A stretch of DNA of 64,000 nt from Schmidtea polychroa (taxonomy: Eukaryota), in assembly GCA_044892525.1 (NCBI GenBank), contig CM097886.1, positions 2,914,001 to 2,978,000 on the forward strand, written 5' to 3'. Each line of letters starts with the position of its first letter. Position 1 is the stretch's first letter. The notes beneath the pieces were generated by a model. The model worked only from the letters and a program-made list of their open reading frames with translations, was not told where the DNA came from and did not search any database. Shown here in pieces: positions 3,550 to 48,650 of this stretch. The position numbers and the translations under genes are program-made.

Positions 3550-3750
3550 CGTATTTGATCCGATGGTAACCTGCTTTTAAAGTTGATTTGATTTAGTTAA
3601 TTTTTTATTTGACCTACATTGATCCAGCAGTGGCCTGTTTTTAAATTCTATTTATTAACATTATAGTGTGTATGTATAAATTTGACCTAATTAATTTTGA
3701 TTTAACCTATATTGATATGGCAGCAACCTGTTTTTAAAGTTGATTTGGCC
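3550..3750. repeat. Degenerate minisatellite (about 3 units)
   Basis: Recurrent ttgacctacattgat...cagc...cctgtttttaaagttgattt units. Confidence 0.5.
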
Positions 3751-4017
3751 GACATAAAACTCTGAAAATTTACGTGACAATACTTTGAAAATGATGGACA
3801 ATCAGCGACTTTCATTCGGCCAACATAATAAGTCTCAAAAATGTCGTGAAAATTCAAAAAATTTAGTTGACTTATATAAAATATTTGTTGACCTACATAA
3901 ACATACTAGGAACATTAGGGGAGGCAATCCTTAATAGAGGGATTGATCAAGCGGTGTCCAATCCATCTATTGTCTGATTTTAAAATGTTATTAAAATATT
4001 TGGAAAATTAATGTGCA

Positions 4018-5483
4018 AAATGCAATGAAAACTTTTGTTTTAAATGTTTTTAAATAGCTTTTTTTCTAAATTATTTTTTTCTATATATATTAAAAAGCTT
4101 GACTATGATTGTTTGTTTTCTAAATAAGAGTGCAGTATAATAATAAAATATACCTTTTTTTGATATTCATTAAACTCTTTATTAGGAGGCTTTTTTGGAT
4201 AGAGTGTTCCCGACTGTTTGATTGTGAAATCTGAACTTTTTAGCAAGGATATCAACATCAAATATTTCAACGGTTCCAAACAAGAATAGGAAATTATGTA
4301 ATTTTCACTTGTTTTTGTCGACTTGGTAATTGAACAAAATTCATATTCATCTAAATCAGTTTGACATTCAGGATTATAAGCTGATGCCCACAATGATGTC
4401 TTTTTTAAAGTTCGAGATTTCAGTGACTCTTAGAAATTAATAATAAAACACAACAGAATGTGATTCTTGTTACCAAGTTTGATGGACAAAGTAACTGTCA
4501 CTGTATGATATATATTATCCAATGTAACTATTGTCATGCTCTTACGAATTCCTTTCAAGTAATCATATGCTCCAAAATATTCCGTCTGACCCATTTCTAA
4601 AAATTAATTATTGTAAATGTGACTGACAAAATTGTTATCACGTTTTTCACAATTAACTATGTGACAGTCTTCTCTTTTATAGTTATCCGAATAATAACAC
4701 CAAGGACTTTTAGACTGATCCGGATTGCGACATTTGTTACCAGCAAGATTTAGATTCCTTTCCGGAAATGAGTTTGCGGTATGTCTTTTGAAGTTTATCC
4801 ATGGCTTACATCTTTTACCAGATTTTGTTTGACTTATGTCGCCAAGATATTCTGTACCCTTTTCAGTATCTTTGCACCAATTTCGATCTAATAATTACAG
4901 AGTTCTCAGATGTAGTAGAATTGAAGTTGTTACCTTTATTGCACTTTTTAATATAACAGGATTCCCATTCCAATGTCATTTCATCGATAATACACCACGG
5001 ACCATTTGGAAAATTCGTTGGATTTCTACAGTAATTGTTACCAATAAGCGAGGTATTGTCAAAATAAAATGTATCATCCATAACTATTTGATTTACATAT
5101 TCACTTTTCCAAAAGATACATCGTTGCCCACTTTTTGCATAATTCTTCATCCCCAAATATTCTCTACCGTGAGTTGTCATTCTACATTTTTCTATTTCTG
5201 AATAATTTTTAAAATGAATTGAAACTTTTCAACTCTATGTTTACTTTTCAAATGATTGTTTATTGTGACTTTTCTTTTGAATTTAAATAGTGTATAAACC
5301 CAATATACTTTTTTTCCAAAAGAGTCCAACAAGCACAGAGTATTTGGGACCCAATGGATAATGGCTAGTAGTGTGAAAGAGATTGGAAAAATTTAGTTAT
5401 GTTAATTAATAAATTTAATTCATTGATGTATGAACCTGGTACAAATCCTTCTGATTGACTGATTAAAAACTTGAAAAAAAGCA
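4018..5483. repeat. Duplicated block B (kringle exons 2-5 with introns and flanks); partner at 20038-21533
   Basis: Near base-for-base identity at offset 16019-16020. Confidence 0.95.
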
Positions 5484-15987: not shown

Positions 15988-18222
15988 TCAGTTCAATATT
16001 TGAATGTGCTCAATTAGTTTAGGGCCTTCAACTGTAAATTTATTTTTCAATGGTCCAATCTTTACGGTTATTTTCTTAGGTGTACGTTCCACTAAACCTT
16101 TTTTTCTAAACTTTGAAATTATTTGATTAGTTCTCTTTTCGACCGCTTTGGTGAGAAAATCATCTGGAAAAAACATTGGATATTTGGATAATTCATTTTC
16201 AGTTTTTCCATCAATAGGCCATTTCCACAGCTCAAAAAAAGGACACAAATTCATTTTGGATATATTAGAAGTAATCGTAATCCAAAGTTGAATTTTGTCA
16301 TTGTCAGAAACCTGTTTTAATTTCTTTTCCATTACATCAAACTGTCGGAATGTTTGAGCAAATAACTCCCATCCAAAATGATGCCTTAGTTGTGCAAATA
16401 TAGATAATGCTATAAAATGGTTATTTCTCCAGTTGGCATCAAATGTTCCATTAATCAAATAATCTTTTACGTCGTTAATTGTTAACCGTTCTTGAAACCA
16501 ACCAGTAGTTGGATCCCAAGAACTTTGTTTATGCATGGATTCAGTAGCTATTATAGAAAATATGTTGTTTGTTGTTTCTCCCGTTCCCTTGAAAGTAAAT
16601 ATTCCATATTGTAGGTTATGTCCCATCTCATGCATCAAACCCCATGGACCTGTTTTAAGATGTTTTATTGAAAATATAAAGTTATCTTTAGTAGGATTTC
16701 CAAGATGATATACCATTGTACCGATAGGATATCCTGAATGCATATATCCAACTCCAATTTGTATATCAGTTGTCACTAATTCTCTGCGTCTATCAGAAAC
16801 GTTTCTTCCTCTCAAATGAAATTCTTCTTTAAACATTGAATCGTACAGCTTTAAAGGCGTCTCCGGATCGGCTACATTTCGAATGGCACTTGATGCTACT
16901 AAAAATACAGTTGTGTCACTAGCAAGGATTGCCCAAGGAGACTCTAATTTTTGTTTTCGAATCCATTCCTTTGAATCCTCTCGATTTCTTCTATCAAAGT
17001 ACGGTATTTGCATTACATTTTTAAATATTATTTCGACTTTATCATTATTTTCCCTACAAGAAATTGCAATCAATCCGCCAAATGGGAAATTAATAGTATG
17101 CGTTTTGTATCTTTCAATTTTGTACTGCATACGCGTCACGGGCCATTTCGTAATTTCAGATTTATAAGCTATCATAATTTGATGATGATTTAAATATATC
17201 GTGCAAGTCTTTGATATGGATTTAACAATTCTGATTGAGGTATCTAGTCTAGGATAAAGATAAAGACCAAGATAGACATCTTCGTTCCTAAAAGGAAGGT
17301 TGAGGTTCATCTTAATATCTACAAGTGGAGGATTATCTGATTGAAATTTACCAGGATAAAGCGCCAATGCTGGAGGTAGCACATTTACTTCGAATGGAGA
17401 AACTAAAATATAGCTGAAAAATCTAATGAAACATTTATCAGGTTCTTTATCAATCGGTTTATCAATACAAGAAGTGAGACTTTTAATGAATGGCCAGTTA
17501 TCTGAATATAAATCCTGAAAATATGTTTTTATCAAGTCAAAGTTTTTTTTGCTAATTCCTTGCTTAATTGGAATTCTGTCAGGTATTTCATAAAGAAATA
17601 TTGTTACTTCATCCATGATTTTGTTGTCCGTTTTGGCATATTCAAATAATTGATTAAATGCCATAGTATGTATAGAGTGCTTAGTAACGGTTTTCCAATC
17701 ATCATCATGTAAGGATAATTCTGGCCAAACCCCCGCAGCATAAAGCAGAACTTTGATTTCAGAATCTAAAATATTTTGTACATAGGCTTCGTATACCCAT
17801 GGTTTTATCGCTATGACAATCCTCAATCCGGACTCTATATATGTAAGTAAAATACCAACTAAATCTGGACCTATTATTTTATGACTATTCCAGATGAAAG
17901 GTTCAGATAATATAGATTCTGATTTGTTCGCTGAAATTATTTCTTTTAGATATGATTTTACCAAAAACTTTGGTTTTTTTACAGGCTTGTCAAAGACATT
18001 TTGAAAAAAATCTTGGAATTGTTTATACTGCGTTTCATCCGCTGCATCATGGCTCGAGATAAATGCAATACGGCCTTTTCCGACAGTTGAAATGGTCATG
18101 GAAATTTTATTTTTACTATTGATTGCGTAAGCGATTGCGTTATCATGCAACAAGAAAAAGTTACCTGGATTTCTACCCAAAGAAATTTTCAACTCTTTTT
18201 TATTTCTATAATATGCATGCAT
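15988..18222 (-). CDS. TCAF/FAM115-like M60 metallopeptidase, copy 2 (744 aa, intronless)
   Basis: Same HEMGH...GETTNN motifs, colinear with copy 1, ATG preceded by TTTAG. Confidence 0.93.
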   Translation of the reverse strand: MHAYYRNKKELKISLGRNPGNFFLLHDNAIAYAINSKNKISMTISTVGKGRIAFISSHDAADETQYKQFQDFFQNVFDKPVKKPKFLVKSYLKEIISANKSESILSEPFIWNSHKIIGPDLVGILLTYIESGLRIVIAIKPWVYEAYVQNILDSEIKVLLYAAGVWPELSLHDDDWKTVTKHSIHTMAFNQLFEYAKTDNKIMDEVTIFLYEIPDRIPIKQGISKKNFDLIKTYFQDLYSDNWPFIKSLTSCIDKPIDKEPDKCFIRFFSYILVSPFEVNVLPPALALYPGKFQSDNPPLVDIKMNLNLPFRNEDVYLGLYLYPRLDTSIRIVKSISKTCTIYLNHHQIMIAYKSEITKWPVTRMQYKIERYKTHTINFPFGGLIAISCRENNDKVEIIFKNVMQIPYFDRRNREDSKEWIRKQKLESPWAILASDTTVFLVASSAIRNVADPETPLKLYDSMFKEEFHLRGRNVSDRRRELVTTDIQIGVGYMHSGYPIGTMVYHLGNPTKDNFIFSIKHLKTGPWGLMHEMGHNLQYGIFTFKGTGETTNNIFSIIATESMHKQSSWDPTTGWFQERLTINDVKDYLINGTFDANWRNNHFIALSIFAQLRHHFGWELFAQTFRQFDVMEKKLKQVSDNDKIQLWITITSNISKMNLCPFFELWKWPIDGKTENELSKYPMFFPDDFLTKAVEKRTNQIISKFRKKGLVERTPKKITVKIGPLKNKFTVEGPKLIEHIQILN

Positions 18223-18910
18223 CTAAATTCATAATTAAATAAATTTTTCCATAAAATATAAATAATTTATTTAATATTATGCAAATATTTTTTTAATTAA
18301 TTATAAATTAAAAATTTTATATATCCTTATTTTTTATACCATTCGTTCTGAAACTGAGAAATAGATGTAATCAACATTAACATAAAACCTTAACATAAAA
18401 TAAGAGAAGTAAATTCCACGATTCAAATACTTTAATTGATTCAACATTATTTGAAATTTAAATTCCTTTATACTTTTCTATTTTTTATTTTTTATTTTTT
18501 TTATAAACCTAAAGACAACAAAATAAAAAAAATATTTTCTAAATTTCAGTAGGATAGAAAACTTAACACACAAAAGCATAACAATTCCAGCACACACACA
18601 TCGTGGCACGAAGGCATTATATCCATCAAAGATTTGATTGGATGCACACCAAATACATCAATTCATTTTCTTTGATGTTTCAAGAATTTTTGAACAGGGA
18701 AAATTATTTAAATTTTATTTATGTTTTAAAATATCTTTTTTAGAACATATTGATCAAGCCTCAAATTATGCCCCAGAACTAAATGGGAGGATGCTGTTGC
18801 TAAAGATGTACCTGGATTTATATACATTGAGGAACAATGTTGTGATTCATTTGAAAAATGTTAGTGTTGTTTTACTTATATAATTTTCTATGATTTTTTA
18901 TTTGTTTATG

Positions 18911-18969
<59 letters not shown>

Positions 18970-18980
18970 AAGAAGAAGAA
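18911..18980. repeat. Compound (AAT)n(AAG)n microsatellite
   Basis: Direct reading. Confidence 0.97.
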
Positions 18981-18984
18981 CAAA

Positions 18985-19330
18985 GTTTAATTTGTAATAT
19001 AAACATTATAAAACAAATCTTAACTTTAAATTAATTAATGATAAGATATTTTCTTATTTTTCTTGAAGCATCTGTAAGGATCCATTTATATTTTGTCTGA
19101 GATAAAGTTGCATTATGATAAAAAAAGTATAATCCCATGAACCCTGCAGTAATTATTGACATATTTATCCAAATCAGAATCGTAATGATCAATAAGTATG
19201 TAGCACGATATATAAACTATTACATATCATTTTATAGAAACAAACAAACTGCAAACAACTAATATCATTACACCAAAGAAAAAGCTAGCTATATCAGCAA
19301 CATCTTTGACCCTCGCTTAAAATATGGTAA
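18985..19330 (-). mobile_element. Possible 3' remnant of a CR1/L2-type LINE ending in the microsatellite
   Basis: Decayed coding-like sequence running into a simple-repeat tail; no intact motif. Confidence 0.3.
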
Positions 19331-19656
19331 GTTGAGATATGAATGTTTCCGTCTAGTAATTTCGATAAATATTCGATAAAATTCCAAATGTGAAATGATC
19401 ATTTGCAAATTCAATAATTAGTTTACTAGTAAACGATGCCAATGATAATCAAATTAATTATTGAGTCTTAGAATTCATAGATCACAAATCGATTGTATAC
19501 ATTACAATGATTTTCATTGAATAATTAATTTGATTATCATTGCATTTTGGTTACCTGGAATTTAATAAATTAAAAAAGAAAAAGAATTCAAACATAAATA
19601 ACAATCAAATTAACACGAAACATAAAATTAATAACAAACACAAAAATGGATATAAA

Positions 19657-19704
<48 letters not shown>
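19657..19704. repeat. (AAT)n microsatellite
   Basis: Direct reading. Confidence 0.97.
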
Positions 19705-20173
19705 TCAAAGAGACCTGCTGTTAGTATTCAATCTTGCGTCCCCTTTAAAATGATTTAAAAAGATCAAATTATTAAAAGTGACGATAAAGATGAATTTCAT
19801 TCAAATAATATTCAAGTAGGTGATTCGCTCGATATTGCCGACGAACCTAAAATTGAAATAGATTTTAAGGGAGCCAGAAAAAGTCTCACATTTGATGTGC
19901 AGATAAAAGATTTAATTCAAATCACTGTAACAAATAACCCTAACCCTAAACGATGCCAATGATAATCAAGTTAATTAACAATTTCGACCTGTGTGTAAAT
20001 TTACATTCTGAATTTGTCACTTTCTCCTTAATATGAAAAATGCAATGAAAACTTTTGTTTTAAATGTTTTTAAATAGCTTTTTTTCTAAATTATTTTTTT
20101 CTATATATATTAAAAAGCTTGACTATGATTGTTTGTTTTCTAAATAAGAGTGCAGTATAATAATAAAATATAC

Positions 20174-22579
20174 CTTTTTTTGATATTCATTAAACTCTTT
20201 ATTAGGAGGCTTTTTTGGATAGAGTGTTCCCGACTGTTTGATTGTGAAATCTGAACTTTTTAGCAAGGATATCAACATCAAATATTTCAACGGTTCCAAA
20301 CAAGAATAGGAAATTATGTAATTTTCACTTGTTTTTGTCGACTTGGTAATTGAACAAAATTCATATTCATCTAAATCAGTTTGACATTCAGGATTATAAG
20401 CTGATGCCCACAATGATGTCTTTTTTAAAGTTCGAGATTTCAGTGACTCTTAGAAATTAATAATAAAACACAACAGAATGTGATTCTTGTTACCAAGTTT
20501 GATGGACAAGGTAACTGTCACTGTATGATAGATATTATCCAATGTAACTATTGTCATGCTCTTACGAATTCCTTTCAAGTAATCATATGCTCCAAAATAT
20601 TCCGTCTGACCCATTTCTAAAAATTAATTATTGTAATGTTACTGACAAAATTGTTATCACTTTTTTCACAATTAACTATGTGACAGTCTTCTCTTTTATA
20701 GTTATTCGAATAATAACACCAAGGACTTTTAGACTGATCCGGATTGCGACATTTGTTGCCAGCAAGATTTAGATTCCTTTCCGGAAATGAGTTTGCGGTA
20801 TGTCTTTTGAAGTTTATCCATGGCTTACATCTTTTACCAGATTTTGTTTGACTTATGTCGCCAAGATATTCTGTTCCCTTTTCAGTATCTTTGCACCAAT
20901 TTCGATCTAATAATTACAGAGTTCTCAGATGTAGTAGAATTGAAGTTGTTACCTTTATTGCACTTTTTAATATAACAGGATTCCCATTCCAATGTCATTT
21001 CATCGATAATACACCACGGACCATTTGGAAAATTCGTTGGATTTCTACAGTAATTGTTACCAATAAGCGAGGTATTGTCAAAATAAAATGTATCATCCAT
21101 AACTATTTGATTTACATATTCACTTTTCCAAAAGATACATCGTTGCCCACTTTTTGCATAATTCTTCATCCCCAAATATTCTCTACCGTGAGTTGTCATT
21201 TTACATTTTTCTATTTCTGAATAATTTTTAAAATGAATTGAAACTTTTCAACTATATGTTTACTTTTCAAATGATTGTTTATTGTGACTTTTCTTTTGAA
21301 TTTAAATAGTGTATAAACCCAATATACTTTTTTCCAAAAAAGTACAACAAGCATAGAGTATTTGGAACCCAATAGATAATGGCTAGTAATGAGAAAGAGA
21401 TTGTAACAATTTTGTTATGTTAATTAATAAATTTAATTCATTGATGATAGTTTGATATTAGGGAGATGTATGGACCTGGTACAAATCTTTCTGATTGGCT
21501 GATTAAAAACTTGAATCATTCTTATTATATTTCATTCAGGTGAGGTGGCAATCAGTTTTGTATTGTTTAAAGCAGTGGTAGGGGAGGCGCCAAAACCTTT
21601 AGGTAAAAAATGATTTTCATACTATAATATCTACAAATAAATGAAACTTCATATTGTAACGAAACTGTAAATATTCAGTAAATAAATACTTAATTTTATT
21701 TTTATTAAATTTCTATACATACATTTAATTCGTATATAAAAATTATCCGAAGAGGAAGATTTTAAAATTGGCGCCTTTGCAACGCTCTGTTTCGGTAATG
21801 CACAAAACGCCCTCTAGTTGCACGAAACAATAACCTCAAATTTATACGTCACTCGTCGCAAAAGTGTGAACTGTAGCGAATTGGCTGGATGTGTTATTGT
21901 TATTATCGTGATTTCTTTCTGAAAACAATCGTTAGTATATTTTCATATTTATATTTAATTATTATTTATTTTAAATTATATCAATAAAATATTTTTAGAA
22001 AAATGGATAAATTTTTGAGTGGGTACAAGAGAAAAGTTGTGCATATATTCATGTAAGGTTAAAAAATATTAATAATAATTATAATATTAATAATAATAAT
22101 AATGATAACAAAGCCATTGAAAATGATGCAGATGACGGAGAAATTGAAGACAGACGAAATAATGCAGAAATTGAAAACGATCTTATAGACATAGACGATG
22201 TTTTGATGACAGACTTGGGAGATTATGATTAAAAAACTTTATTTTTTATTTAATTGTTATTATTTTTATTTGTTGTCTCTTAATCACAACTAAATGAAAA
22301 TAATATTTAAACAAATTAACAACTAATAATTGTTATTATGTTTCATAAAGTAATTTTATAAAGAAATTTTTACATTTTGTAAATTTTTAATTTAAAATTT
22401 AGATTAATTTTTTATATTAATTTAAGATTTATTAGTTTAAGATTATTAGTTGTTAATTTGTTTAAATATTATTATTTTCATTTAGTTGTGATCTATACGA
22501 TTCCTAGCGTGAAGAATACTGTTAAACGGTCGAAATTTATAGCAATATTATATTTTAATATGCTTAGTTGACGATTTTC

Positions 22580-22610
<31 letters not shown>

Positions 22611-26476: not shown

Positions 26477-28172
26477 CCGGGTAGTCTCGAAAGTAAGACC
26501 AGGTCTTACTTTCGAATTTTTATAGATTTCAACGCAAAATAAAGAAATCGAAAGTAAGACCGGTCTTACTTTCGAGTGGAGAATGATACCCCAACCCTTG
26601 TTATGCCCTCGTTAAATCAATAAAATGTGAGGAAATTAAGACATAAAAAGAAAATTGTAAAACAAAATACACTTTAACAGAACATAAATAAAGGTAAAAC
26701 AGAATATGAATTCACAGTGTTTTTAATGAAACATGATTTCATTTTTATTCACCAAAATCAACATACTCCTTCTCTTCCGATAATTCTTCTTCCACAACAA
26801 AACCATCGTCTTTTTCCACACCTATCAATTTTTGTTTAAGATTGTTATTAAACAAATCCCCGTTATAGTCTTGATTAACCCCAAAAATGCCACAACAAAC
26901 AAATGCCTTTTGTATACTCTCGGTCTTTATTTGATCAACCGATTCAGATACCCATTTGAATATAATTTCCCAGTAGGATATCTGCCTGTATCCCATTTTA
27001 GTGAAATTTGCATCCCCATTTGCCATCCATTCCGACCATCTTTTTCTATATTCGTTTTTAAAAATAAAATTTTAATAACAACATCAAGAGGCTGTAAAAA
27101 TGCAGTTGTTTTTTCCGGAATTTCAATTGTTTTCACATTAAGTCGAGTGAAAAGATCTGTAACTTCATTTCTTGTATGTGCACTAAACTTATCAAAAATA
27201 ATTACAGCTTTCCTGTTTTGCCCAAAAATATTATCGCATGGAAAACAATTTTGGATCCACGTTTTCATTATTTCTGTTGTCATCGTTCCAGATTCAGATG
27301 TAATTACCATTAGATTTTTTGGAATAAAGCATTTGGGAACTTTACGCAATTTTTTAAGAATCACAAGAGTTCTATGAAGTTTTCCATTGGCTGAAATAAG
27401 TAGCACGACTGAAAAACGTGTTTTGCAGTGCCCAGTTCCCTTTGCTTCGACATTTTTTTCACCTTTGGTAGTTATAGTCTTTTATGGCATAGTATCTATA
27501 TAAATTGGTGTTTCATCCATATTATAAATATTACTTTCATCATACATTTGGCAAATTTTCACTTTTTCTAAATGGTTTGTAATTATTTCCTTTATCTCGG
27601 AATGACTTCTATTATCCTGTTGTCCAATGCTTGTTATTTTACGATAGGATAGATTGTTTCTTCTAAAGAAATTATGAACCCAACATTGACTTAATACAGG
27701 CGACAAATTGTTTGCAGTTATATATTCCATTGCTTTTTGTCTCAAAAGGTACAGGGAAACTGCTCGTTTGAAAACCATCCTTTCGAATTTAACATATTCA
27801 ACCAAAAGTTTTTCCAATTCTGGAAATTCGGCTTTTCTTCCACATCCCACTTTCTTTAGTACATTTTTCCTGATTACGCTCAAAAGAGTATCCTTCTGGT
27901 ATAACCAATCACGCAACATTTTGGATGTTATATTGTTTTCACGTGCCGTCTTACTGATGTTTCCCTTGTTCACAATCAAGTGTTCAAGTATATCCAGCTT
28001 AAACTTAACTGTATATGATCGTCTTGTATTTGTCATATGGATATAAAAATTTTGTATATATAATGGATATATTATATGGATATATAATTTTTTAATGGAA
28101 ATCAATTTTATTTGTCTCGAAAGTAAGACCATAGTCTTACTTTCGAGTGGTCTTACTTTCGAGACTATCCGG
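26477..28172 (-). mobile_element. pogo/Tigger-type DNA transposon, full length with frameshifted transposase (ATG at 28036)
   Basis: 24-bp TIRs ccgg(g/a)tagtctcgaaagtaagacc flanked by TA. RRSYTVKFKL (HTH), GRKAEFPELEKLL (CENP-B HTH), IYNMDET, IIFDKFSAH, LQPLDV (DDE_1) split over three frames. Confidence 0.93.
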
Positions 28173-30305
28173 TAATACCTACCTTGAAATATTATATTTT
28201 CATTAAATAGTATCATGAAAGTTAGTGTTAAAAAAACCTAATTTGTATTTGAAAATCTAGAACCCTTAAAAATACCACAGGGTAAATTATCTGTTTATTA
28301 GGTAGGATCATAGAATTAAGGTTTAGAAAAACTAATTTTTATTTAGGGTTTAATACCCCTAGAAATACCTTTGAAATAAATCATCCTTCTATCAACTAGT
28401 TAAAGATGGAAATCTAATTTTATTTAAAAGTCCAATCTCCCTAAAATATATCGGTGAATGGATTACATCTTCACTATGTAATACCCTAAAAATTAATATT
28501 TGGAGAACTTAAATTGTAATCAAAAGGCTAACATCCTTAAATTATGATTCAATACTAGTTATTTGAGTAGAATTTGAGTAGTTTCCCCGGCGGACGCTTG
28601 GCACCAATACGAAGCCCATGTTGTTTCTTATGATCAGCTAAATTATATTATCAACTTAAATTATTGAAGTTTGAAATCAAAGGGTTAGTATCATTAATTT
28701 AATCCAGTGAATGGGATGATCGGTTTTCATGTTTGTAAGAAAAATCAAATTTTCAATAATCACATGAATAATCTGATAGAGAGGGACGAGAGCACGAACG
28801 AATTTATTGACGAACATAAAATCCCACATAAAATCCCACATCTACCATTGGTGAATGATTATTAAATAAATCCCATAAATTTAATTTCTAAAAATAGGAT
28901 TACTGATTTTTTCTTAATTAATTCATATTATTAATATGGATACTAAAAATAGATTATCGATTTTTTTCTTGTAACTCCCTCAAACCGACTCCAACTAATG
29001 AGCGTAAGATGTCTACCCTTCGTAAAATGTTCCCTTGTTAGACCAGAATGAGCTGAACCAATCCTACAGACTAACTTGCCAACAAGCCAATCACCATCGG
29101 CTACGAGATGACTTCCATATACGGTCGTACCATACCGCACATAACCCTACTCATAGACACAAAATCTTCACTAGATCTTACAGAGAAGACCTTAGCATAT
29201 AACTCTGTACAGCACAGTTGATAGAATTTCGTATAGTTGTGAGATTAAATAAAAATAAACATTAACGCACCCAATTTCAATTCCTTTTCGTAAGATTAAA
29301 TGAACTAAGAATTAAACAATATATAGATGAGAGCTTGATACTTCATTATATACAGAATAACGTGGATTAACATTATAATGACTGAGCCACTTTCATCTTC
29401 ATTTGGTCAAATGATACCCCACCAACAGCGAGTTCAATTACCAAGAAACTAAATGAGAGCATCACCGTCGCCAACCCATCAGAAAAATCCAATGACTAAA
29501 AGTAAATGAATAGGGAAAAATATAAAAGTTACCTTCAGATGACTAGCGTCAATAAAATCACCTACTATCATTACATACGGAGGGTGGGTAAGAGGCTCGA
29601 GTAAAGACTCAAGTGTTACACTCTGTCGCCTTGTAACAGGGTTTGGTGGGAAAATTTCTGTGACCTTCCAAAAGAAAAAAAGAAATGTTTTCTTGTTTTT
29701 TAAAAATTAAAATGTAAATAAAATATTGTGAGGTAATGAGTAAATAAATTAGAGTGGTTAAACAACTAGTGCGAATTTAACCCAAGAATGAATAAGGAGT
29801 TAATCAAACATTTTACTAATCTTAATTTATTCAATATGTATTGCTTGTTGAATTATAGTTTAGTGGTTTAGAGTTATTATGCGTAGTTACTAGGCCTCAA
29901 TTTAGGATGTAGATTGCGGTTAGGAATTCCTGAAATAGTCACACATGTCAAAGGACTCCTCTCTAGGATTGATGAGGTAAGAGACAAGGGTCGTGTTTCC
30001 ATTTTGGTGGTCGTATTTATACTATAATGAAAAATTTTAACGCTGGTAAGGAAGGTCGGCCAATCAATAGCTCTAAACCCCAACCGCGAAATCAGAAAGG
30101 GGTTAGCAGATCAATCAATCAACTAGTCCTCAACCACAGAATAATTGTATCATATTAGTTCCAGTAGTCATATTCAAAATCAATGAACCTCAAGTGAATC
30201 AGAACCTCATTGACCGAATTCCGTCATGGAATGATTATCAGGGCTGCGTGTGATTGATCGACCAAATTGATAAGAAAGAGTATCATTAACTAGTTCATCA
30301 TTTCA

Positions 30306-38700: not shown

Positions 38701-41566
38701 GCTAACGCGTGCCACACTTTGGACACCGCTGATTTATACATATAAAATTAATAAATTTTAGTATAATATTATTTAGTATGATCAACGTAACAGCTGTAAA
38801 ATATATGAGAATTAAAATAATTTTTAGTTCATATAAATGTAGCGAATTCATTTAACATTCAGAAAAAATATTATTTAATGTCATAAGATGTTGTCAATAT
38901 TTTTGCTTTTATATATTTTTTACTACAGTTAAGTTTTTATCCTACCATTCTACGTCAATTTTCTGCTTTTCATCTGTAAAAATTTTTTATTTTCTCCAAA
39001 AATATGAATAAATTTATAATTTTAAATTTTAAAAAATATTTTAATTATCACAATTTTTTTATATTCACTAAAATTTTGAATTAGGAACACATTGACAAAT
39101 GCATCAAGCTGAACCCACAGGATGCCTATGCAAATCATTTGAAAGGCCGGTTTTGTTATCAGGTAAAATTATAAAACAAATTTTTTCCGTATTAATTACC
39201 TTTCAATTATATAATAACACATATATTTTGATCATAAGATAACGCCAATCAAGCATTCTTTTCACGATATATTTCGACAGTTTTCCTGTCATCATCAGGT
39301 GGGATATAATAACTCATTAAATTAAGGATTTGAAACAAATTTATTAGTTTAAAATCCTTAATTTAATGAGTTATTATATCCCACCGGATGATGACAGGAA
39401 AACTGTCGAAATATATCGCGAAAATAATGTTTGATTGGCGTGATCTTATAATTAAATCATTGCCATGTATGTTTAAATATTTTGATTAGTTTGTTAAATT
39501 TGCGTTGAATGTATCAGATTCCATGTGTTATTGAATATGAACATTTTTTTGACAATTTTGGAAACAGAATTTGATAGATAAAAATTTCATTTAAACTATG
39601 TACCGAAAATAAGTTTTGATTAGAAAGTAAAATATCTATCTATAATCTGAATGAAATGAAGATAGACGAAACTTTTTATTGATGGTTTAGGGGTCATTGC
39701 ATAATTACGTCACGCCAAAATGACCAAAAACATTAATCGTCTCTTCAATAACTTTCGGATACCGTGCATTCTCGTCTGGTCCTCCATCTGACCATGACAC
39801 CCAAAATGGTTTAACATTTTTGGATGGTGTTTTGACAACATTCTCAAACCGTTCATCATCAACTATGTGGCGTATGTCCGTGCCATGACTGTAGGCATTT
39901 GATGTATCATGCTTTCCTGAACGGATTGCTATATAAGTTGGGCCAGTGTTCGATATCCCGGTTGCCTTGTCGCCAACAATGTCATCGTTGATAGTTAGGA
40001 AGGCGTACACTGAAGGTATCAATTTATGTTTCTCGGCTACCACCCAATCGTGATCTGGTAATTTTACTCAGTACTCTGTACTCATCATAATTGGCTGCTC
40101 TTTACTTACTGTTGCAATTCCAAGAGCTATTCTAACTTTATCGTCTGGCGAAAATAGCATTGTGTTTTGTGGACCAATAAGTGTGAATAGTTCCATAACG
40201 AGCCTGATAGCAGCCAAACCAAACTGGGCATCTTCATTTTTCTTCCGAGCATTGAATTGGGATTTGACAAGTTTCACCGGAACCGTTTGTACATGTCTTT
40301 TGCCTTCATTTGTATTCCAGCGACGTGGTATCAGACGTCTGTATACAACAGTTCTTTCAATATTGTAACCTTTTTCATTGAGCATTAGTGTCAGATCATC
40401 TAAGTTTCAGGACATTGCAATAATTCAGATCGACGCCCAGGATCAGCTCCAGCTTCATTGGAACAAACGAGTTCCCAAATCACATTGAGAAGATCTGGAT
40501 ATTTCTGCTCCTTTATGGGACGCCCAGGTTTTTCAAGTAATGTTTCACCTGCAGCTGCGGATAAATTTTGGTATTTTTCTTTTTTTTTCAAACGAGATTT
40601 CTGTGCTCGAGAACTGTTAAGTCGAAGAGTTTGAATAGCTGTTGGATTTTCTTTTTGCTAGTCTCCAAGTTCTTCAATTCCTTTCCTACAGCTTCTGAAT
40701 CACCTAAACCTTTCTGTTGCTTTAATACAAGGAATGATATGTTGGCATTTACTTCATCCAAACGTTTTTGTTCTCGTATTTCTGCTGGTGTATGACGTTT
40801 TATATCTTCCAACACATTCTGATTTTCAACCTCATTTATACTCGATTCACTAGTGATGATTTTCGATTCGTCGACAACTGAAGTATGACTGATTGTTTTG
40901 TCCATAACTGTCGGCTATAACAGTTCACCAGCAGATGATTCAACAGACACAGATGAAACCTTCTGCAATAATCTTTTCTTTGCTGGAATGTTTGTCCAAT
41001 AACTCAGACTCTTTGATTTTCGTTTTTCTACAACCATTCTTAACTCGTTCAGTTTTGTTTGACATGTAGCTGCTCGTGCTTCGATATGTCCGGATGTGCA
41101 AGAGCATACGTATTCACTAGATCTTGGTATAGATCTGGCATTTTGTTAAATTTACTTTTCTTGAACATGTCTATAGTCATCCAATATTAAAAGGTTTTCT
41201 TTAATATTCTAATTTAATGATAAGTTGTTAATAAGTGAAATTAATATTAAATATGTAATTTAGGTCAGTAATCTTCATTTTTATGAAAGGAAAATAGCAG
41301 CTTGGCTTTTTGCTACACCCCCGGTAGCCACCCTCGATGAAGCGTTGATATTGTTTCAAAAGGTAATTCTTCATTAGTGATCTGAGGATTTATTTGTATT
41401 TCAGTGTGAAGAGTTGGCTCCTAATAAGTACGGCGAAAACCACTACTTTTTGTCACTGTGTTATCAGAATCTTGGTGACTATAATAAATCATCGAAGTTT
41501 CTTAACTCCGCAAAACAGCTTCCATGTTCTGATATTGATATTAAACAAAAAATCAACATGATCTAA
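32557..41566 (+). CDS. RMDN: Regulator of microtubule dynamics (RMDN2/3, FAM82/PTPIP51-like), about 340 aa; exons 32557-32846, 32886-33036, 34748-34990, 39085-39162, 41264-41362, 41405-41566
   Basis: N-terminal TM (ISFGIFIGFGLGYFF), coiled coil, then TPR region: EFLWRYAM...SEAHKWLAILYG...QKRILNGFKFK | EHIDKCIKLNPQDAYANHLKGRFCYQ | VSNLHFYERKIAAWLFATPPVATLDEAL | CEELAP...CYQNLG. All junctions GT-AG and in frame. Confidence 0.9.
33817..34697. mobile_element. Possible piggyBac-type non-autonomous element in RMDN intron 2
   Basis: TTAA-CCC...GGG-TTAA ends with imperfect short TIRs; a hAT-like cagcgccgtc end is nested just inside. Confidence 0.45.
35160..35762. mobile_element. MITE with TIR gttacggtaaa(t/a)gta in TA runs, RMDN intron 3
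   Basis: Inverted termini, repeated aatgtaca subterminal motifs, (TA)n on both sides. Confidence 0.75.
36300..37110 (+). mobile_element. Possible LTR-retroelement 3' remnant
   Basis: GC-richer decayed coding-like DNA (KKKKRPGKAKRARLK), then a tgttag...tgtaac segment. Confidence 0.3.
39234..39449. repeat. Long inverted repeat (arms of about 100 bp, 10-nt loop) carrying two hammerhead motifs, RMDN intron 4
   Basis: 39234-39336 is the near-perfect reverse complement of 39347-39449. Confidence 0.93.
39263..39301 (-). ncRNA. Minimal type I hammerhead ribozyme (intact core)
   Basis: CAC-CUGAUGA-U-GACAG-gaaaa-CUGUC-GAAA-UAUAU-C^GUG: full core, 5-bp stem II, palindromic AUAUAU stem III, 3-bp stem I. 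Confidence 0.72.
39690..41150 (-). mobile_element. Decayed DNA transposase, Zator/TP36-like, in RMDN intron 4
   Basis: RRLIPRRWNTNEGKRHVQTVPVKL, FSPDDKVRIALG, HKLIPSVYA, GPTYIAIRSGKH, SDGGPDENARYPKV over several frames. Superfamily assigned from recalled motifs. Confidence 0.6.
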
Positions 41567-41732
41567 ATTTTGCCTATTCATCAATTTACTCGATATTTTT
41601 ATAATTTATTAATAAATTATTTTATAACTTCTTTGCATATTATTCAATATTGAATTGTATTAACTAATAGATGAAGTGACTGGAATCCTCTTTGCACTAA
41701 CAATGGCATTAGTATTTTTGGCTAGCTTAGAT

Positions 41733-42149: not shown

Positions 42150-42720
42150 TAGTGATTTAATGATCAACTGATATCGGTATTTCTACTTCTTCTGAATGTT
42201 GTGAATGTCACTATAAGAGAAATGTGACCAAAGATCGATTTCATGGTATTTATCTTCTACTTTTGCAAATTCAGTAAAATGTCTTGATAAATTTATTGAG
42301 TTATTGATGAAGAATAGATATTTAAAATAATTATTATTGCTGATTAAAGAAACTGTTGATAAATGTGTTAACACATTGACGGACAGATGGAAAATTATCT
42401 TTCAATATAAGTAGATTTCTGAGAGCCTTACCATAAGAACATTATCAATGGTAATTAAATGCAGCAAAGATTAGACAACGATCAAACAAAAATAAAGCCA
42501 TTAATTGCAGTCTTTCCAATGTATGTAGCATTCCATCCATTACATGAAAATTGATAAACGAGTTCTGAATACGAACCAACTGAAGTTGGAGACTTATTAG
42601 TAAACTTGTTACCAACCTTGCAAGACTTTGAAACAATCCTAATTATGGTCTTATCTACGTGTTTAAGGATCTTATGATTGAATTCTTTGAAATATTCAGA
42701 ATAAGGTAATACTAAAACTT
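42150..42720 (-). mobile_element. Penelope-like element remnant (GIY-YIG endonuclease)
   Basis: KVGNKFTNKSPTSVGSYSELVYQFSCNGWNATYIGKT resembles the PLE VYKFTCSGCNATYIGKT motif. Confidence 0.75.
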
Positions 42721-43034
42721 ATTTTTGATCAGTGTGCTTAATTCGAATTTTTTTCACCTTCCGAACTTGGTATAAAGATTTTTAATTTTTAAATTTAAAT
42801 TGAACTTTATTTTATAATTTAATTTTAAAAAATTTGTATAATGCTATCAATTTTGTGTGTTTTTTTTAATTAAAATAATAATTTTTATGATTCTTTTATA
42901 TGAAGGTTCTTTTTTCAAAAAGAAGGAAAATTTTATAAAAACACCTTTTAGTTTGATACAATTGGATTACGATTATTATCTGTTAATTTGTTTGAATATT
43001 CTTATTTTTATTTAGTTGTTATTAATACGATTCC

Positions 43035-43074
43035 TAGCCTGAAGAAGACTGTTATATGGTTAAAATATATAGCA
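43035..43074 (+). ncRNA. Degenerate minimal hammerhead motif (CUGAAGA family)
   Basis: tagc-ctgaaga-agactg-ttata-tggtt-aaaa-tatata-gca; G12 mutated; about 90 bp shared with 22495-22585. Confidence 0.4.
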
Positions 43075-43323
43075 ATGTTACATTTTAATATACTTATTTG
43101 GTGATTTTCAATTATTAAAACGTTACCTTCTTTCTTTATTTATTATTTTAATTGTTGATAAACGTCACTGCTAAAGATCGGATCAGTAAATTTGAGAACT
43201 TCTGTCATTACTAATAACTTTTTAACCTGAGTTTTAATTTTAATCATTTTAATTTTTAAAAAAAGAATTTCATTTAAAGTTTTTTATTGTTTATCACATA
43301 AAATGATTCAAAAAAGGTTTTAA

Positions 43324-45567
43324 TCAATTCAAAAGTTCAATTTCTTCTATAATTTGTTTTCCTTCAATTGCAAATTTATTTTTCAAAGGTCCGATTTTTT
43401 CTGGAATGGTAAAAGGCTTACGGAGAACTAAATCTATTCCTCCAAACTTTGAAATTATTTCATCAACTCTCTTCTCGACCATTTTTGTAAGAAAATCATC
43501 TGGAAGAAACATTGGAAGTTTAGATAATTCTTTTTCAGTTTTCTGACTAATTGGCCATCTCCACAACTCATATAAAGGACACAAATTCATTCCGGATATT
43601 TCAGATGTAACTTTAATCCAAAGTTGAATTTTGTCTTCATCAGAAATGCTGCCAATTTCTTTCAGCAATACATTATACCGACGAAATACTTGAGCATAAA
43701 ACTCCCATCCAAAATTTTTTCGTTGCTGCGCATAAATAGCTAATGCTAAGTAATTATTATTTTTCCATTGTTGAAATGTGCCATTATTTATATGGTTTAC
43801 TAGATCATTAATATAAAGTTTTTCTGGAAGCCATCCATTGGTTGGAGACCAAGAACTGTGATTGGTCATAGATTCAACAGCTACTAACGTAAATATGTTA
43901 TTGGTCACTTCCCCGACTCCACTGAAAGTGAATATAGTTTCTTGTAAATTGTGTCCAAGTTCATGCATCAAACCCCATTCACCATCAATTTTAATATTAT
44001 ACATGTGGAAAAAATAATCTTTTTCATTAGAGGGATTTGTGACCCAGAATATCGGTGTACCGATAGGGTATCCCGCATGCATATATCCTGCTTTTATTTG
44101 TATATCTGTTGACACCATTTCTCTACGACTTGCAGTAATTGTTCTTGCTATCAAATGAAACTCTTCTTTCACCATAACATCGTACAATTCTAAAAACGAA
44201 TTCGGATCGGCAAAATTACGAATAGCATTTGATGATAATACAAATACAAGAGTGTCACTAGCAACAACTGTCCATGGTGAAACTAGTCTTTGCTTGTGGA
44301 TCCAATTTTTTGAATCTTCTTTGTTTCTCCTATCGAATAGCGGTATTTGTACCACATGATTGAAAGTTATTTCAACTTTATCATTATCTTCATCACAGGA
44401 AATAGAAAGCAATCCGCCAAAAGAAAATGAAAATATTTGCAATTTATTTCTTTCAATAGAGAATTGAATGTTTGTTTTAGGCCATTTATAAAATTCTGAT
44501 TTATAGGAAACGTCAAAATGGTGATAATTGATGTATATAAAGCAAAATTGAGACTTTGATTGAGTAATTTGAACGGAAAAGTCCTCCCCAGGAGTAGCAT
44601 AAAGACCAAGCTGAGCAACTTCTTTGTTGTAAATAAGATTCAGTCTCATTTTAATGTCTTTTAGTGGAATGTCATTCGAATAAAATTTTCCAGGATAAAA
44701 TGATAATCCAGGAGCATTCATTTTTTGGCCGAAAGGAGAAACTAAAATACTGTTGAAAACCCTCAAAAGTGTTTTACTTGATTCCTCAGTAAGACCAACT
44801 TCCCAACAAGGGATGAAACTCTTAATATATGGTAAATAATTTGAGTAGAGATCGACAGTGAGATTTTTGATTAAGTTAAATGTTGTTTTACTTAAAACCT
44901 TTTCGATTGAAATTTCGGAAATTATGTTCGTAATAGATTCTGCGGCATTTTGTAGGTTGATAGCATTTAATTTTGCATATTCAAGCCTTTCATACATTGG
45001 CATGGTGTATACGGAGGGTTGAGTAACGGTTCTCCAATTATTGTCAGCATATATAAGTGATGGCCAAACACCAGCTGCTAAAAAAAGAATTTTCAATTCA
45101 CTGTCGAAAATCTTTTTAAGATAGTGATCATATGCCCATGGTTTCACTCCAATAATTACCCTTAATCCAGAATTTACTAAGTGAAGTAAAGTACCAACTA
45201 ATTCTTCCCCCAATTGCTTATGAGCACTCCATATGAAAGGTTCCAATATTGCAGATTTCGAATTATTGTTGGAAATTAGCTCTTTCAAACCTTCTTTTGT
45301 CAAATACTTTGGACTTTCTACTGGCTTTTCATAGACATCATTGAACAAGTCTTTTAATTGTGGAAAGTATGTAGCATCAACTATTCCGTCGGTTGCCAGA
45401 AATGCGATTCTGCCTTTTCCAACTGTTGAAATTGTTATGGGGATTTGATTATCTGAATTAATGGCATACGCAATTGCGTTATTACTCAATAAAAAGAAAT
45501 GTCCAGGGTTTTGGTCCGATGGAATCTTCAATTCATTTTTGTTTTTCTTTTGGAAATACTCATTCAT
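43324..45567 (-). CDS. TCAF/FAM115-like M60 metallopeptidase, copy 3 (747 aa, intronless, diverged paralog)
   Basis: WGLMHELGHNLQ...GEVTNNIF, colinear with copies 1 and 2, ATG preceded by TTTTAG. Confidence 0.93.
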   Translation of the reverse strand: MNEYFQKKNKNELKIPSDQNPGHFFLLSNNAIAYAINSDNQIPITISTVGKGRIAFLATDGIVDATYFPQLKDLFNDVYEKPVESPKYLTKEGLKELISNNNSKSAILEPFIWSAHKQLGEELVGTLLHLVNSGLRVIIGVKPWAYDHYLKKIFDSELKILFLAAGVWPSLIYADNNWRTVTQPSVYTMPMYERLEYAKLNAINLQNAAESITNIISEISIEKVLSKTTFNLIKNLTVDLYSNYLPYIKSFIPCWEVGLTEESSKTLLRVFNSILVSPFGQKMNAPGLSFYPGKFYSNDIPLKDIKMRLNLIYNKEVAQLGLYATPGEDFSVQITQSKSQFCFIYINYHHFDVSYKSEFYKWPKTNIQFSIERNKLQIFSFSFGGLLSISCDEDNDKVEITFNHVVQIPLFDRRNKEDSKNWIHKQRLVSPWTVVASDTLVFVLSSNAIRNFADPNSFLELYDVMVKEEFHLIARTITASRREMVSTDIQIKAGYMHAGYPIGTPIFWVTNPSNEKDYFFHMYNIKIDGEWGLMHELGHNLQETIFTFSGVGEVTNNIFTLVAVESMTNHSSWSPTNGWLPEKLYINDLVNHINNGTFQQWKNNNYLALAIYAQQRKNFGWEFYAQVFRRYNVLLKEIGSISDEDKIQLWIKVTSEISGMNLCPLYELWRWPISQKTEKELSKLPMFLPDDFLTKMVEKRVDEIISKFGGIDLVLRKPFTIPEKIGPLKNKFAIEGKQIIEEIELLN

Positions 45568-45693
45568 CTAAAATAAAAGTCAATATATAAAATAAAATTC
45601 TATTTCCTCAAAAAATTCTCCTAATCTCGCTATTGTTTGCCTAAGTTTTCTGTCAAATATATAACATATTATTCTAACTTTTATACTCTAAGG

Positions 45694-45919
45694 CAGTGGT
45701 TCTTAACCTGGGGTCCATGGACCCCCCAGGGGGGTCCGCGGCACTATTTACAAATAAAAATTATTTTTGTTTGAAGCTGAATAAACAGATTTATAAATAA
45801 TTATTAAAAAATCTATGTGTTTTACTATCAATTTATTATTTTTTTAATATTTCAGGGGTCCGTCGGTACCAATTATATTTTTTTGGGGTCCATAAGTTTG
45901 AAAAGGTTAAGAACCCCTG
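45694..45919. mobile_element. hAT MITE with 8-bp target-site duplication
   Basis: TIR cag(t/g)ggttcttaacc; CTCTAAGG at 45686-45693 and 45920-45927. Confidence 0.93.
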
Positions 45920-47100
45920 CTCTAAGGATATATCTAAGGACCTGGATTCCGGGATTCGTTTTGGGATTTCTGTCATTTTCCTGCCTTCGGAATTGTTTGT
46001 AATTTTTATAATTTTTTGTTCTATATGAATAATAATTTTATGCTTGAATCATTCGAGTTGATCGTACTTGATTCAAAGATATTGAACTGAAAATAGGTGG
46101 ACAGTAGCGTTTCTTTTTGATGTCGGTAAACTGGTGACATCATTTTAAGAAAGTTATTCAGAAAACAGCATCAGTCAATTATTAAATTTTGAATAACAAT
46201 ATGAGGCAGTAAATTATAAATGTTTATTTGTCATTTTTTTCAAAAATAAAATTTGTAAAATGAGATAATTCCATGCAACGAATACAAAAATAAGAAGTTA
46301 TTATGTATTTTTTGCTGTGTTGTGTATGTGTGTTAAATTTATCTTTTCTACTACTTTATCAATTTATATAAATGATGGTGAAATGGAAAATATCAGCACA
46401 AAGGTGTTTTCATAATATAAGCTATTTGGCATTTTTATATTATAGAATGACGTGAAACCAGATGAGTTACTTCAACCAAAAAAAACTGAAAGGTTTTTAT
46501 TATAATAATAGATGTTGTGTTACTTACTTAAATATTAATGTTTTCTACAAATTAATTTTAAATAATTAACCTGAATTTTAATGAAATAAAATAGGTAAAA
46601 GTCAGAATAGTCGAATATGGAAGTCAAAAAAAGAGTCGTGAAAAATTAGCCGACTGCAAACCCCTAAAAATAACCGACATCCAACAAATGCCAAAATATA
46701 CCAAAAAAATCGTCGACAAAAATCGTGAAAAATTAGCCGATTTATTTTGTTAATTTATTAAATATTTAGATAATTTTAAATGTTGTTAGTAAATAGCGTT
46801 GTATAAAAGTTGCAATATTTTTTTGCATAATTTTTTGTGTATTTTATTTGTAGTTTGTTGGTTTTATTTCAAATTTAGTAAGGTACCTTGTATAACTAAA
46901 GGGTTTGTAAATACATTATTATAACAAAAATTAAAATGTCTTTTGATACAAGTTTTGTATTTGTTACAAGTGTTTTGTTTCTGTTATTGGAAAATTATTG
47001 TTCGTGTGGCATTTAAACAACGGTCTGAGTTCTTAACACTAATTTTTGACCAAAAAAAAAGAATATTTATAAAATTTTTATAATTATAATTAAATTTCAC

Positions 47101-48650
47101 TTTATTTTCATATTTTCTAAATTGTTCGCTGGGACTCAAATTGATTGCATAAAGTTTCCCTGAATGTTTTATTGTGTATTCCATCTTCTTTAGAGGAGAA
47201 ATGAATATCAAATGTTTCAATGGCTGCAAACATGAATAGGAAATAATGTAATTTTCACCTGTCGTTTTCATTTCTACTATTGTACAATATTCATACTCGT
47301 TCAAATCAGTTTGACATATGGGGTTATAATCAGTTGCCCATAATGAGGTTTTATTAAGAATATCAGAATTCAGGGACTCTTAAAGCATAATTAATAATTT
47401 TTTATATAAAATTATATTTAAAAATTTTTAATTTTACCAAGTTTGATGGATACCGTAGCTGTCACAGCCTCGTAAATGTTATCCATTGAAATTATCGTCT
47501 TTTGATTAGGAATTAACTTCAAAAAATCATAACCTCCGAAATATTCCATTTGACTGAATTCTAAAAATAATTAAACATAAATGGCAACGATCTCATTATA
47601 CGAATCCTCAACTCGAACATTCGTTTTACGATATATTTTGACAATTTTCCTGTTTGTCCTACCTGATGATGACTGGAAAACTGTCGAAATATATCGTAAA
47701 ATATATCGAGTGGTGCTTTCTTATAACTAGTTAGATAAGTTTAATAAAATGAGGTTTACGTTTATCACATTTTGGTACATCACATTCTTCCTTTTTATTA
47801 TCCTCCGAGTAATAGCACCAAGGACTTTCTGACATATCTGGATTACGACATTTATTTCCTACAATATTGAGGTCCTTTTCCGGAAAAGAATCTTCAGAAT
47901 GTGTTTTTTGATTAATCCAAGGATGGCAACTTTTACCGGATTTCGTGTAATTTAAGTCACCAAGATATTCTGTCCCTTTGTCGGTATCCTTGCACCAATT
48001 TCGATCTAATAATTATGGAATACATAAATAAATTCAAATTCAAATTTATTTCACCTTTAATACAACTTTTAATATTGCAATATTCCCATTTTAATGTATT
48101 CTCGTCGATAAAGCACCACGGACCGTTTGGAAAGTTTGTTGGATTTCGACAGTAATTGTTACCAATAAGTGACTTACTGTGATAATTTATCGTTTTATCC
48201 GTTTGTAATTTATTTATAACTTCCTCTTTCCAAGCAATGCATTGTTGTCCATTTTTCGTTATGCTCGACGTTCCAATGTATTCTCTTCCGTGAGTCGTGA
48301 TTTTGCAGTTTTCAATATCTAAATGTAAAATTCATTATTTTAGAAATAAATTTTACTATTAAATTATCTTTTATAACTACATTTCTATTTCATATAATAT
48401 AAAATTTTGATCGATTGTCGGATATGAAAATAAAAAAAAATTAAAAATAAAAAATAAAAAAATAAATGAAAACTATGGAAAATTTTAAATAATTAAATAA
48501 AATTACTCACGAAATAAAATAATTAATTACTCACAGTTTATATTTAAATTTAAATCAAAATAAATTGAAAAGCAATTTCTAACTTGTAAAATAGCATGAA
48601 GCGAGTCTGCTCAGCAATGGTAAAGCAAGTAGGAAACAAGTATAAATCAT
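47101..48650 (-). CDS. Signal peptide + 2 kringle + linker module, copy 3; exons 48650-48584, 48318-48055, 48005-47760, 47560-47438, 47378-47101 (326 aa, open at the 3' donor)
   Basis: MIYTCFLLALPLLSRLASCYFT leader. Exons 2-4 have the same lengths as in copies 1 and 2 (264, 246, 123 nt) and the same phases. Kringle cysteines and YCRNP/PWC motifs intact. Confidence 0.85.
47660..47698 (+). ncRNA. Minimal type I hammerhead ribozyme in kringle-3 intron 3 (antisense to the gene)
   Basis: UAC-CUGAUGA-U-GACUG-gaaaa-CUGUC-GAAA-UAUAU-C^GUA; one stem II mismatch; stem I co-varies with the 39263 copy. Confidence 0.68.

What the first reader, a model, noticed from the sequence alone, without database searches (positions are those of the whole stretch)
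39234..39449. Twin hammerhead ribozymes in a hairpin: intact antisense, broken sense
Seen: a 216-bp inverted repeat in RMDN intron 4 carries a complete minimal hammerhead on the minus strand. The mirror copy on the transcribed strand has CUGAUGA changed to CGGAUGA (39386) and a stem I mismatch. Established: minimal hammerheads with a palindromic stem III occur in Penelope-like element termini and cleave as dimers. Inference: selection removed self-cleavage from the pre-mRNA strand; the hairpin could also be an endo-siRNA or editing substrate.
Basis: partly seen in the sequence, partly recalled or inferred. Interest (0 to 1): 0.75.

Follow-up and report, generated by a model that had tools for sequence, protein, structure and literature searches.

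The report
Penelope-like retroelement stump in RMDN intron
A 244-base mirror-image insertion in an intron of the RMDN gene is likely the stump of a Penelope-like jumping gene; its two back-to-back hammerhead motifs are predicted to be locked inside one hairpin, and damage to just one of them is something chance would often give, so this is ordinary.

Summary
In detail: a 216-bp inverted repeat in RMDN intron 4, a full minimal-hammerhead core on the minus strand (stem I only 3 bp), and U4G plus a stem I mismatch on the transcribed strand. A second family copy with the same layout lies in a kringle-gene intron (47571-47726). Head-to-head arms, a one-sided tail, a duplication and a minimal hammerhead are the published signature of endonuclease-bearing Penelope-like insertions; the parent ORF was not found. 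Selection against sense-strand cleavage is unsupported: neutral decay gives this asymmetry about one time in four, and the sense motif is transcribed after its own complement, so it is predicted to be buried whatever its sequence. No genome-wide count or RNA evidence was obtained. This scan has reported the same kind of insertion in other genomes.

The parts
39223..39232 (+). Left copy of the 10-bp target-site duplication (ATATTTTGAT)
   Evidence: a repeat of 10 bp or more at this spacing and slack in 9 of 9029 control positions, 3 of 755 AT-rich ones
39233..39340 (-). Inverted arm without tail, reading outward from the centre
39263..39301 (-). Minimal hammerhead motif with intact core; stem I 3 bp, stem II 5 bp, palindromic helix III; predicted cut after 39266
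   Evidence: 30.2 bits with model R2
39332..39351 (.). Symmetric head-to-head junction (hairpin loop), 2 mismatches
39343..39449 (+). Direct arm, on the RMDN-transcribed strand
39382..39420 (+). Mirror hammerhead motif with U4G (39386) and a stem I mismatch (39419)
   Evidence: 15.8 bits, partial match
39388..39474 (+). Short open frame starting at the ATG inside the motif and running through the tail (29 codons); possibly the start of the parent ORF
   Evidence: open in all 4 arms; synonymous excess P 0.014-0.037 with the frame fixed, 0.14-0.37 for best of six frames; suggestive only
39450..39476 (+). 27-bp tail present on this arm only and shared with the second family copy
39477..39486 (+). 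Right copy of the target-site duplication
39163..41263 (+). RMDN intron 4, the host intron (GT-AG; inferred from the reading frame and homology)
47571..47726 (.). Second family copy, head-to-head, in an intron (about 47561-47759) of a minus-strand kringle gene. Plus arm: core intact, one U.U mismatch in stem II. Minus arm: starts at stem II, G12A, carries the tail. No exact duplication left (best 4 bp).
   Evidence: 28.3 bits; two paralogues have a 30-44-nt intron here

Best explanation
This is a 244-bp insertion with two head-to-head arms, a tail on one arm and a 10-bp target-site duplication, and it is likely the 5'-truncated end of an endonuclease-bearing Penelope-like retroelement whose two hammerhead motifs are predicted to be silent here and likely differ only by neutral decay. 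Shown by the sequence: arms, tail, duplication, motif anatomy and a second copy with the same layout. Inferred from published Penelope biology: a GIY-YIG endonuclease made staggered nicks 10 bp apart in AT-rich intron DNA; reverse transcription began at two neighbouring sites of the element RNA (their distance is the tail); both arms stopped about 42 nt upstream of the hammerhead core and were joined at their 5' ends. Predicted: a transcript crossing the insertion in either direction makes the complement of the motif first and zips the motif into a duplex of about 107 bp, so cleavage would not occur even with a perfect core. Such motifs also need a partner copy or the element's protein.
For: Duplication exactly at both ends. 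The tail is shared with a second copy whose short arm ends at the same place, and that copy sits where paralogues have a 30-44-nt intron. Published layout: inverted 5'-truncated copy, 30-40-bp one-sided tail (PMC8557442); 8-10-bp duplications, 31-bp tail, head-to-head as the usual form (PMC3846280); minimal hammerheads with an extra base before stem II and a palindromic helix III, and dual motifs on opposite strands 100-700 bp apart (PMC4209133); tail equals the gap between two RT start sites, and the ribozyme cleaves only with protein (PMC11167929). Comparators with the same core: 18 of 28 well-formed loci with enough upstream DNA have a head-to-head mirror, against 2 of 37 malformed controls; 6 of the 18 have a duplication of 8 bp or more, five of them 11-13 bp with tails of 23-32 nt. 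One comparator (L064) lies behind an ORF with RT and GIY-YIG matches. Neutral chance of the asymmetry 0.20-0.26. Predicted stem II probability about 1e-17 in context against 0.88-1.0 for an isolated arm.
Against: No RT or endonuclease ORF is tied to this family: no genome is held and the exact family pattern found nothing in the metagenome collection. The comparators come from other organisms and were fetched with a pattern taken from this window, so model R2's scores are partly circular. In 12 of 14 distinct comparator mirrors helix III reads ACAUGU, not AUAUAU. The Pfam hits of L064 are below the curated cut-offs. The tail (27 bp) is a little shorter than the published 30-40 bp. The second copy has no exact duplication. 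In both window copies the damaged motif is on the transcribed strand (2 of 2). Two hits in the sense motif with none in the antisense one has P about 0.12. Only 1 of 14 distinct comparator mirrors has a broken core, so a broken mirror is not the commonest state. Folding was computed at equilibrium, not kinetically.
Confidence: 0.85

Rival explanations
1. Same origin, but host selection removed self-cleavage from the transcribed strand: intronic insertions persist only if the sense-strand hammerhead is dead.
For: Direction fits in 2 of 2 window copies. Two lesions in the sense motif here (P about 0.12). Xenopus retrozymes are under-represented in introns, without a strand analysis in the sections read (bioRxiv 10.64898/2026.07.22.740005).
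Against: n = 2 (direction alone P 0.25). The motif is predicted to be buried. Monomers did not cleave and dimers cleaved weakly; an Anolis element's ribozyme needed protein and no reads ended at the cut site. Active hammerheads are conserved in amniote introns. The second copy's sense motif is lost by truncation at insertion. The sense arm also has changes outside the motif (39425, 39442).
Confidence: 0.08
2. The two arms were copied from two different element RNAs, so their differences predate insertion; the damaged motif goes with the tail-bearing arm, not with host-gene direction.
For: In both window copies the damaged motif is on the tail arm. The two ribozyme-breaking changes in the second copy's tail arm are synonymous in the short frame. 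Arm differences crowd downstream of the motif: 1 of 68 against 4 of 32 sites, P 0.035; 3 of 30 against 9 of 26, P 0.047 (regions chosen after looking, two loop-side mismatches left out). The Anolis protein extends both target strands.
Against: Comparator pairs show no such contrast (upstream 68 of 927, first 35 nt downstream 36 of 449). All 5 codon differences between the RMDN arms are non-synonymous. Mismatch clustering P 0.065. The symmetric junction fits fold-back from one template.
Confidence: 0.1
3. The hairpin has been co-opted as a source of endo-siRNA or as an editing or splicing element for RMDN.
For: A long, near-perfect duplex on the pre-mRNA strand 70 nt from the donor site. Penelope copies give small RNAs in a rotifer.
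Against: Any head-to-head insertion gives such a duplex. No sign of conservation was obtained. All miRNA-family matches are below their gathering scores. Being processed would not show a function.
Confidence: 0.05
4. A palindromic non-autonomous DNA transposon (MITE or foldback type) that resembles a hammerhead by chance.
For: Short, palindromic, flanked by a duplication, no coding capacity shown.
Against: The ends are asymmetric (one-sided tail) and the two copies have different centres. The motif is rare by chance (2 in 200 simulated windows). Stem I shows a both-sided change between the copies, CAC/GUG to UAC/GUA (a single event).
Confidence: 0.03

Closest known systems
Insertions of endonuclease-bearing Penelope-like elements (Penelope/Poseidon, Neptune): pLTR with inverted 5'-truncated partner, tail and target-site duplication (PMC3846280, PMC8557442, PMC11167929)
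   Same: Head-to-head arms, one-sided tail, 10-bp duplication in AT-rich DNA, hammerhead in the repeat, possible ORF start inside the motif.
   Different: Only the stump is present; no parent ORF is linked; the tail is 27 bp rather than 30-40 bp.
Minimal hammerheads of metazoan Penelope-like elements (Cervera and de la Pena 2014, PMC4209133)
   Same: Full core, extra base before G10.1, G10.1-C11.1 pair, small palindromic helix III; dual motifs on opposite strands were already noted there.
   Different: Stem I of 3 bp and stem II of 5 bp, against 4-5 and 7-8 bp in Schistosoma (2 and 6 bp in D. virilis); activity untested.
Animal non-LTR retrozymes (PMC7229834, search listing only; bioRxiv 10.64898/2026.07.22.740005)
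   Same: Short non-coding hammerhead-bearing repeat related to Penelope-like termini.
   Different: Retrozymes are tandem head-to-tail units; this is a single head-to-head insert with tail and duplication.
Conserved intronic hammerheads of amniotes, e.g. RECK (PMC6155905)
   Same: Hammerhead motif in an intron.
   Different: Those are canonical and conserved; this one is minimal, predicted to be buried, and shows no sign of conservation.

Membership tests
EN+ Penelope-like insertion | Hammerhead motif in the terminal repeat | tested here: met
EN+ Penelope-like insertion | Inverted 5'-truncated partner joined head-to-head | tested here: met
   2 of 2 family copies in the window
EN+ Penelope-like insertion | Tail of about 30-40 bp on one arm only | tested here: met
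   27 bp, shared by both copies; slightly short of the published range, within the 23-32 nt of five comparators
EN+ Penelope-like insertion | Short target-site duplication | tested here: met
   10 bp at the RMDN copy; not found at the second copy
EN+ Penelope-like insertion | Parent element with RT plus GIY-YIG ORF ending in this repeat | tested here: inconclusive
   No genome held; family pattern absent from metagenomes; a GIY-YIG-like relic 3 kb away is unconfirmed and unlinked; only a comparator with the same core is ORF-linked
Minimal PLE hammerhead | Core C3-A9, G12-A15.1, U16.1, H17; extra base before G10.1; palindromic helix III | tested here: met
   Minus arm. Plus arm fails at U4.
Minimal PLE hammerhead | Helix I of 4-5 bp | tested here: not met
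   3 bp; a 2-bp helix I is published for D. virilis
Minimal PLE hammerhead | Self-cleavage as a dimer or with protein | not testable with these tools
   Only folding: the dimer model scores -17.0 against -20.4 kcal/mol for the best alternative
Canonical hammerhead (Rfam) | Match to an Rfam hammerhead model | tested here: not met
Non-LTR retrozyme | Tandem head-to-tail units | tested here: not met
   No direct repeat of the unit nearby or in the window
MITE / foldback DNA transposon | Symmetric terminal inverted repeats and a fixed internal structure | tested here: not met
   One-sided tail and different centres in the two copies
Hairpin RNA / endo-siRNA locus | Small RNAs from the duplex | not tested
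   No reads were laid; no RNA holder listed

The most novel reading that the evidence does not exclude
Minimal hammerheads of Penelope-like elements cut host pre-mRNA in vivo often enough that intronic insertions survive only when the sense-strand motif is broken or cut away. The two window copies would be the first sample of a genome-wide strand bias, which would be a population-genetic readout of a ribozyme whose activity in cells has not been shown in the papers read.
Probability: 0.08. Interest if true: 0.55.

Novelty: new member of a known kind. Interest (0 to 1): 0.15.

Why it matters
As it stands it adds one more small family of Penelope-like stumps, and it explains why twin hammerheads appear in introns. 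One general point follows from the geometry: in any head-to-head insertion the transcribed motif comes after its own complement, so these inserts are predicted to silence their own ribozyme. That makes solo copies, not hairpins, the right test set for the open question of whether these motifs cut in cells. A real strand bias would answer that question from genomes alone.

Tried and rejected
Genome-wide count: no genome is held for this window. Rfam: no match at gathering level in the window; only sub-threshold hairpin and miRNA matches around the repeat, and no hammerhead for the isolated arm. Sequencing runs: 23 listed, 20 holding part of 39000-41600, best share 0.52; no RNA holder listed. 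No reads were laid, so these shares are not used, and polymorphism, copy number, expression and editing remain open. The exact family pattern found 0 metagenome stretches; the general pattern found 2 viral stretches, both malformed. Pfam on 35 ORFs near the well-formed comparators: 0 hits at 0.001; only split pieces of L064 gave RT and GIY-YIG hits; no PDB match. The first, cruder mirror count (10 of 28 against 3 of 40) was replaced. Model R1 had stem II off by one column and was discarded. Pair counts on alignment A2 are circular, because the rows were chosen for pairing, and are not used. The idea that this class generally starts an ORF at the motif's ATG failed in comparators (0 of 39 open for 28 codons). 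The GIY-YIG-like relic at 42485-42718 got no Pfam hit, no homologue among longer proteins and only a 20-residue match to L064 (E 0.004). Paper searches for a strand bias of intronic hammerheads or Penelope inserts gave 0 papers and 1 unrelated listing; the scan's own notes gave 0 and no look-alike stretches.

Full report
Observation. The repeat is real: arms 39227-39340 and 39343-39456 with 9 mismatches in 114 pairs. It folds at -149.9 kcal/mol, z -27.6. On the minus strand, from C3 at 39298, the sequence reads CUGAUGA, an extra U, a 5-bp stem II, GAAA, a palindromic AUAUAU and C17; stem I has three pairs. The plus-strand mirror has U4G at 39386 and a broken middle pair of stem I at 39419. A strict motif scan found 1 hit in the window and 2 in 200 simulated windows. 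Six exons on the plus strand join into a 340- or 342-aa frame, and exons 3 and 4 match consecutive parts of Pfam RMD1-3 below its cut-off. The repeat is therefore in intron 4 and the plus strand is the transcribed one, by inference from sequence; no RNA was seen. Rfam holds no matching hammerhead model.

A second family copy lies at about 47571-47726. It is also head-to-head. Its plus arm keeps the core, with a U.U mismatch in stem II and a both-sided change in stem I; its minus arm starts at stem II and has G12A. It sits in an intron of a minus-strand kringle gene that is about 199 nt long where two paralogues have 30-44 nt. The long arms of the two copies share about 27 bp beyond the point where the short arms end. 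At the RMDN copy the 10-mer ATATTTTGAT stands directly before the short arm (39223-39232) and directly after this tail (39477-39486). Such a repeat occurred at 9 of 9029 control positions and 3 of 755 AT-rich ones. The insertion is thus 39233-39476. No exact duplication survives at the second copy.

What it is. This layout is the published one for endonuclease-bearing Penelope-like elements: an inverted 5'-truncated copy at the 5' end and a 30-40-bp tail on one side (PMC8557442, passages); 8-10-bp duplications, a 31-bp tail and head-to-head as the usual arrangement (PMC3846280, passages). Minimal hammerheads with an extra base before stem II and a small palindromic helix III lie in their repeats, and pairs on opposite strands 100-700 bp apart were already reported (PMC4209133, parts 1-2 of 4 of the text). 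For an Anolis element, the tail equals the distance between two RT start sites, the ORF begins at stem II, the ribozyme cleaves only with protein, and no RNA-seq reads ended at the cut site (PMC11167929, passages and the second part of the main text). All four arms here are open from the ATG inside the motif, with a weak synonymous excess between the copies (P 0.014-0.037 with the frame fixed, 0.14-0.37 for the best of six). This is suggestive only, and 0 of 39 comparators were open in that frame for 28 codons.

Comparators. Of these 118, 55 had a stem II of 4 bp or more, and 39 of the 55 had a stem I of 4 bp or more; among 51 with a stem II under 3 bp, 5 did; 12 with a 3-bp stem II were in neither group. 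Of the 39 well-formed loci, 11 had too little upstream DNA. Of the other 28, 18 had a head-to-head mirror (14 intact, 3 truncated, 1 broken; two pairs of rows look like duplicates), against 2 of 37 controls. Six of the 18 had a duplication of 8 bp or more. One locus, L064, lies behind an ORF with RT (E 6e-6) and GIY-YIG (E 3e-4) matches, both below cut-off. A model built from 20 comparator motifs scored the intact arm 30.2 bits, the second copy 28.3 and the broken arm 15.8; the next best match in the parts of the window searched (1-38900 and 39080-64000) was 10.1. Caveats: these loci come from other organisms and were found with this window's pattern, and 12 of 14 distinct mirrors read ACAUGU in helix III. 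The parent ORF of this family was not found.

The selection claim. With 7-9 differences spread at random over the arms, the chance that the sense core is hit and the antisense core is not is 0.25-0.26; counting stems too, two sense hits and no antisense hit has P about 0.12. With the second copy as outgroup, four changes fall on the sense arm, two of them outside the ribozyme, and one on the other arm (read). In context, stem II has a predicted pairing probability near 1e-17 on either strand, against 0.88-1.0 for an isolated arm, because each motif is transcribed after its complement. The 'intact' copy is therefore predicted to be as silent as the broken one unless transcription starts at the centre. 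Monomers of such motifs did not cleave in vitro and dimers were weak. Core changes are generally taken to be disabling (PMC3088659, passages and section 8), but I found no measurement of U4G there. Conserved intronic hammerheads exist in amniotes (PMC6155905, passages). Two copies cannot decide it, and in both the transcribed arm is also the tail arm, so the two explanations are confounded.

Not in print, as far as searched. Searches found no paper on a strand bias of intronic hammerheads or Penelope inserts. The library lacks most subscription papers, and supplements of the papers read were not opened.

Earlier notes of this scan describe the same kind of insertion in other genomes. They are unchecked leads, and one pointed me to PMC3846280.

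Verdict. A real, well-delimited Penelope-type stump; a new member of a known kind; interest 0.15. The novel reading (a strand bias from cleavage in cells) keeps about 8%.

Noticed in passing
window 42961-43117 and 22431-22587 (+): A second, decayed hammerhead-like family, two copies 84% identical; the copy near 22300 has an inverted partner of its upstream part. Neither scored with model R2.
   Followed up: partly
window 42485-42718 (-): Broken frame with a GIY-YIG-like motif, head-to-head with the copy at 42961; possibly a decayed Penelope-like endonuclease, unconfirmed.
   Followed up: partly
window 39705-40914 (-): Three broken frames of a larger relic in the same RMDN intron 4, with no useful Pfam hit; a transposase-like origin is my recollection, not a result.
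   Followed up: no
window 47561-47570 and about 47727-47738: The second copy's tail ends 10 nt before the intron's acceptor, and a similar TAG-ending stretch flanks the other end; this may be a decayed duplication that included the acceptor site.
   Followed up: partly
window 43-5228, 15988-21247, 43324-48331 (-): Three paralogous blocks, each a long single-frame gene followed by a kringle gene; the first two are near-identical, a recent duplication or a haplotype copy. Several introns in the window are only 30-45 nt.
   Followed up: no
window 26745-28237 (-): Broken pogo/Tc5-type DDE transposase with Brinker and Tc5 DNA-binding domains.
   Followed up: no
L004, L017, L023 and other metagenome loci: In 12 of 14 distinct head-to-head pairs the arm found by the pattern reads AUAUAU and its mirror ACAUGU, two symmetric transitions; probably a result of picking rare double mutants from very large families.
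   Followed up: partly
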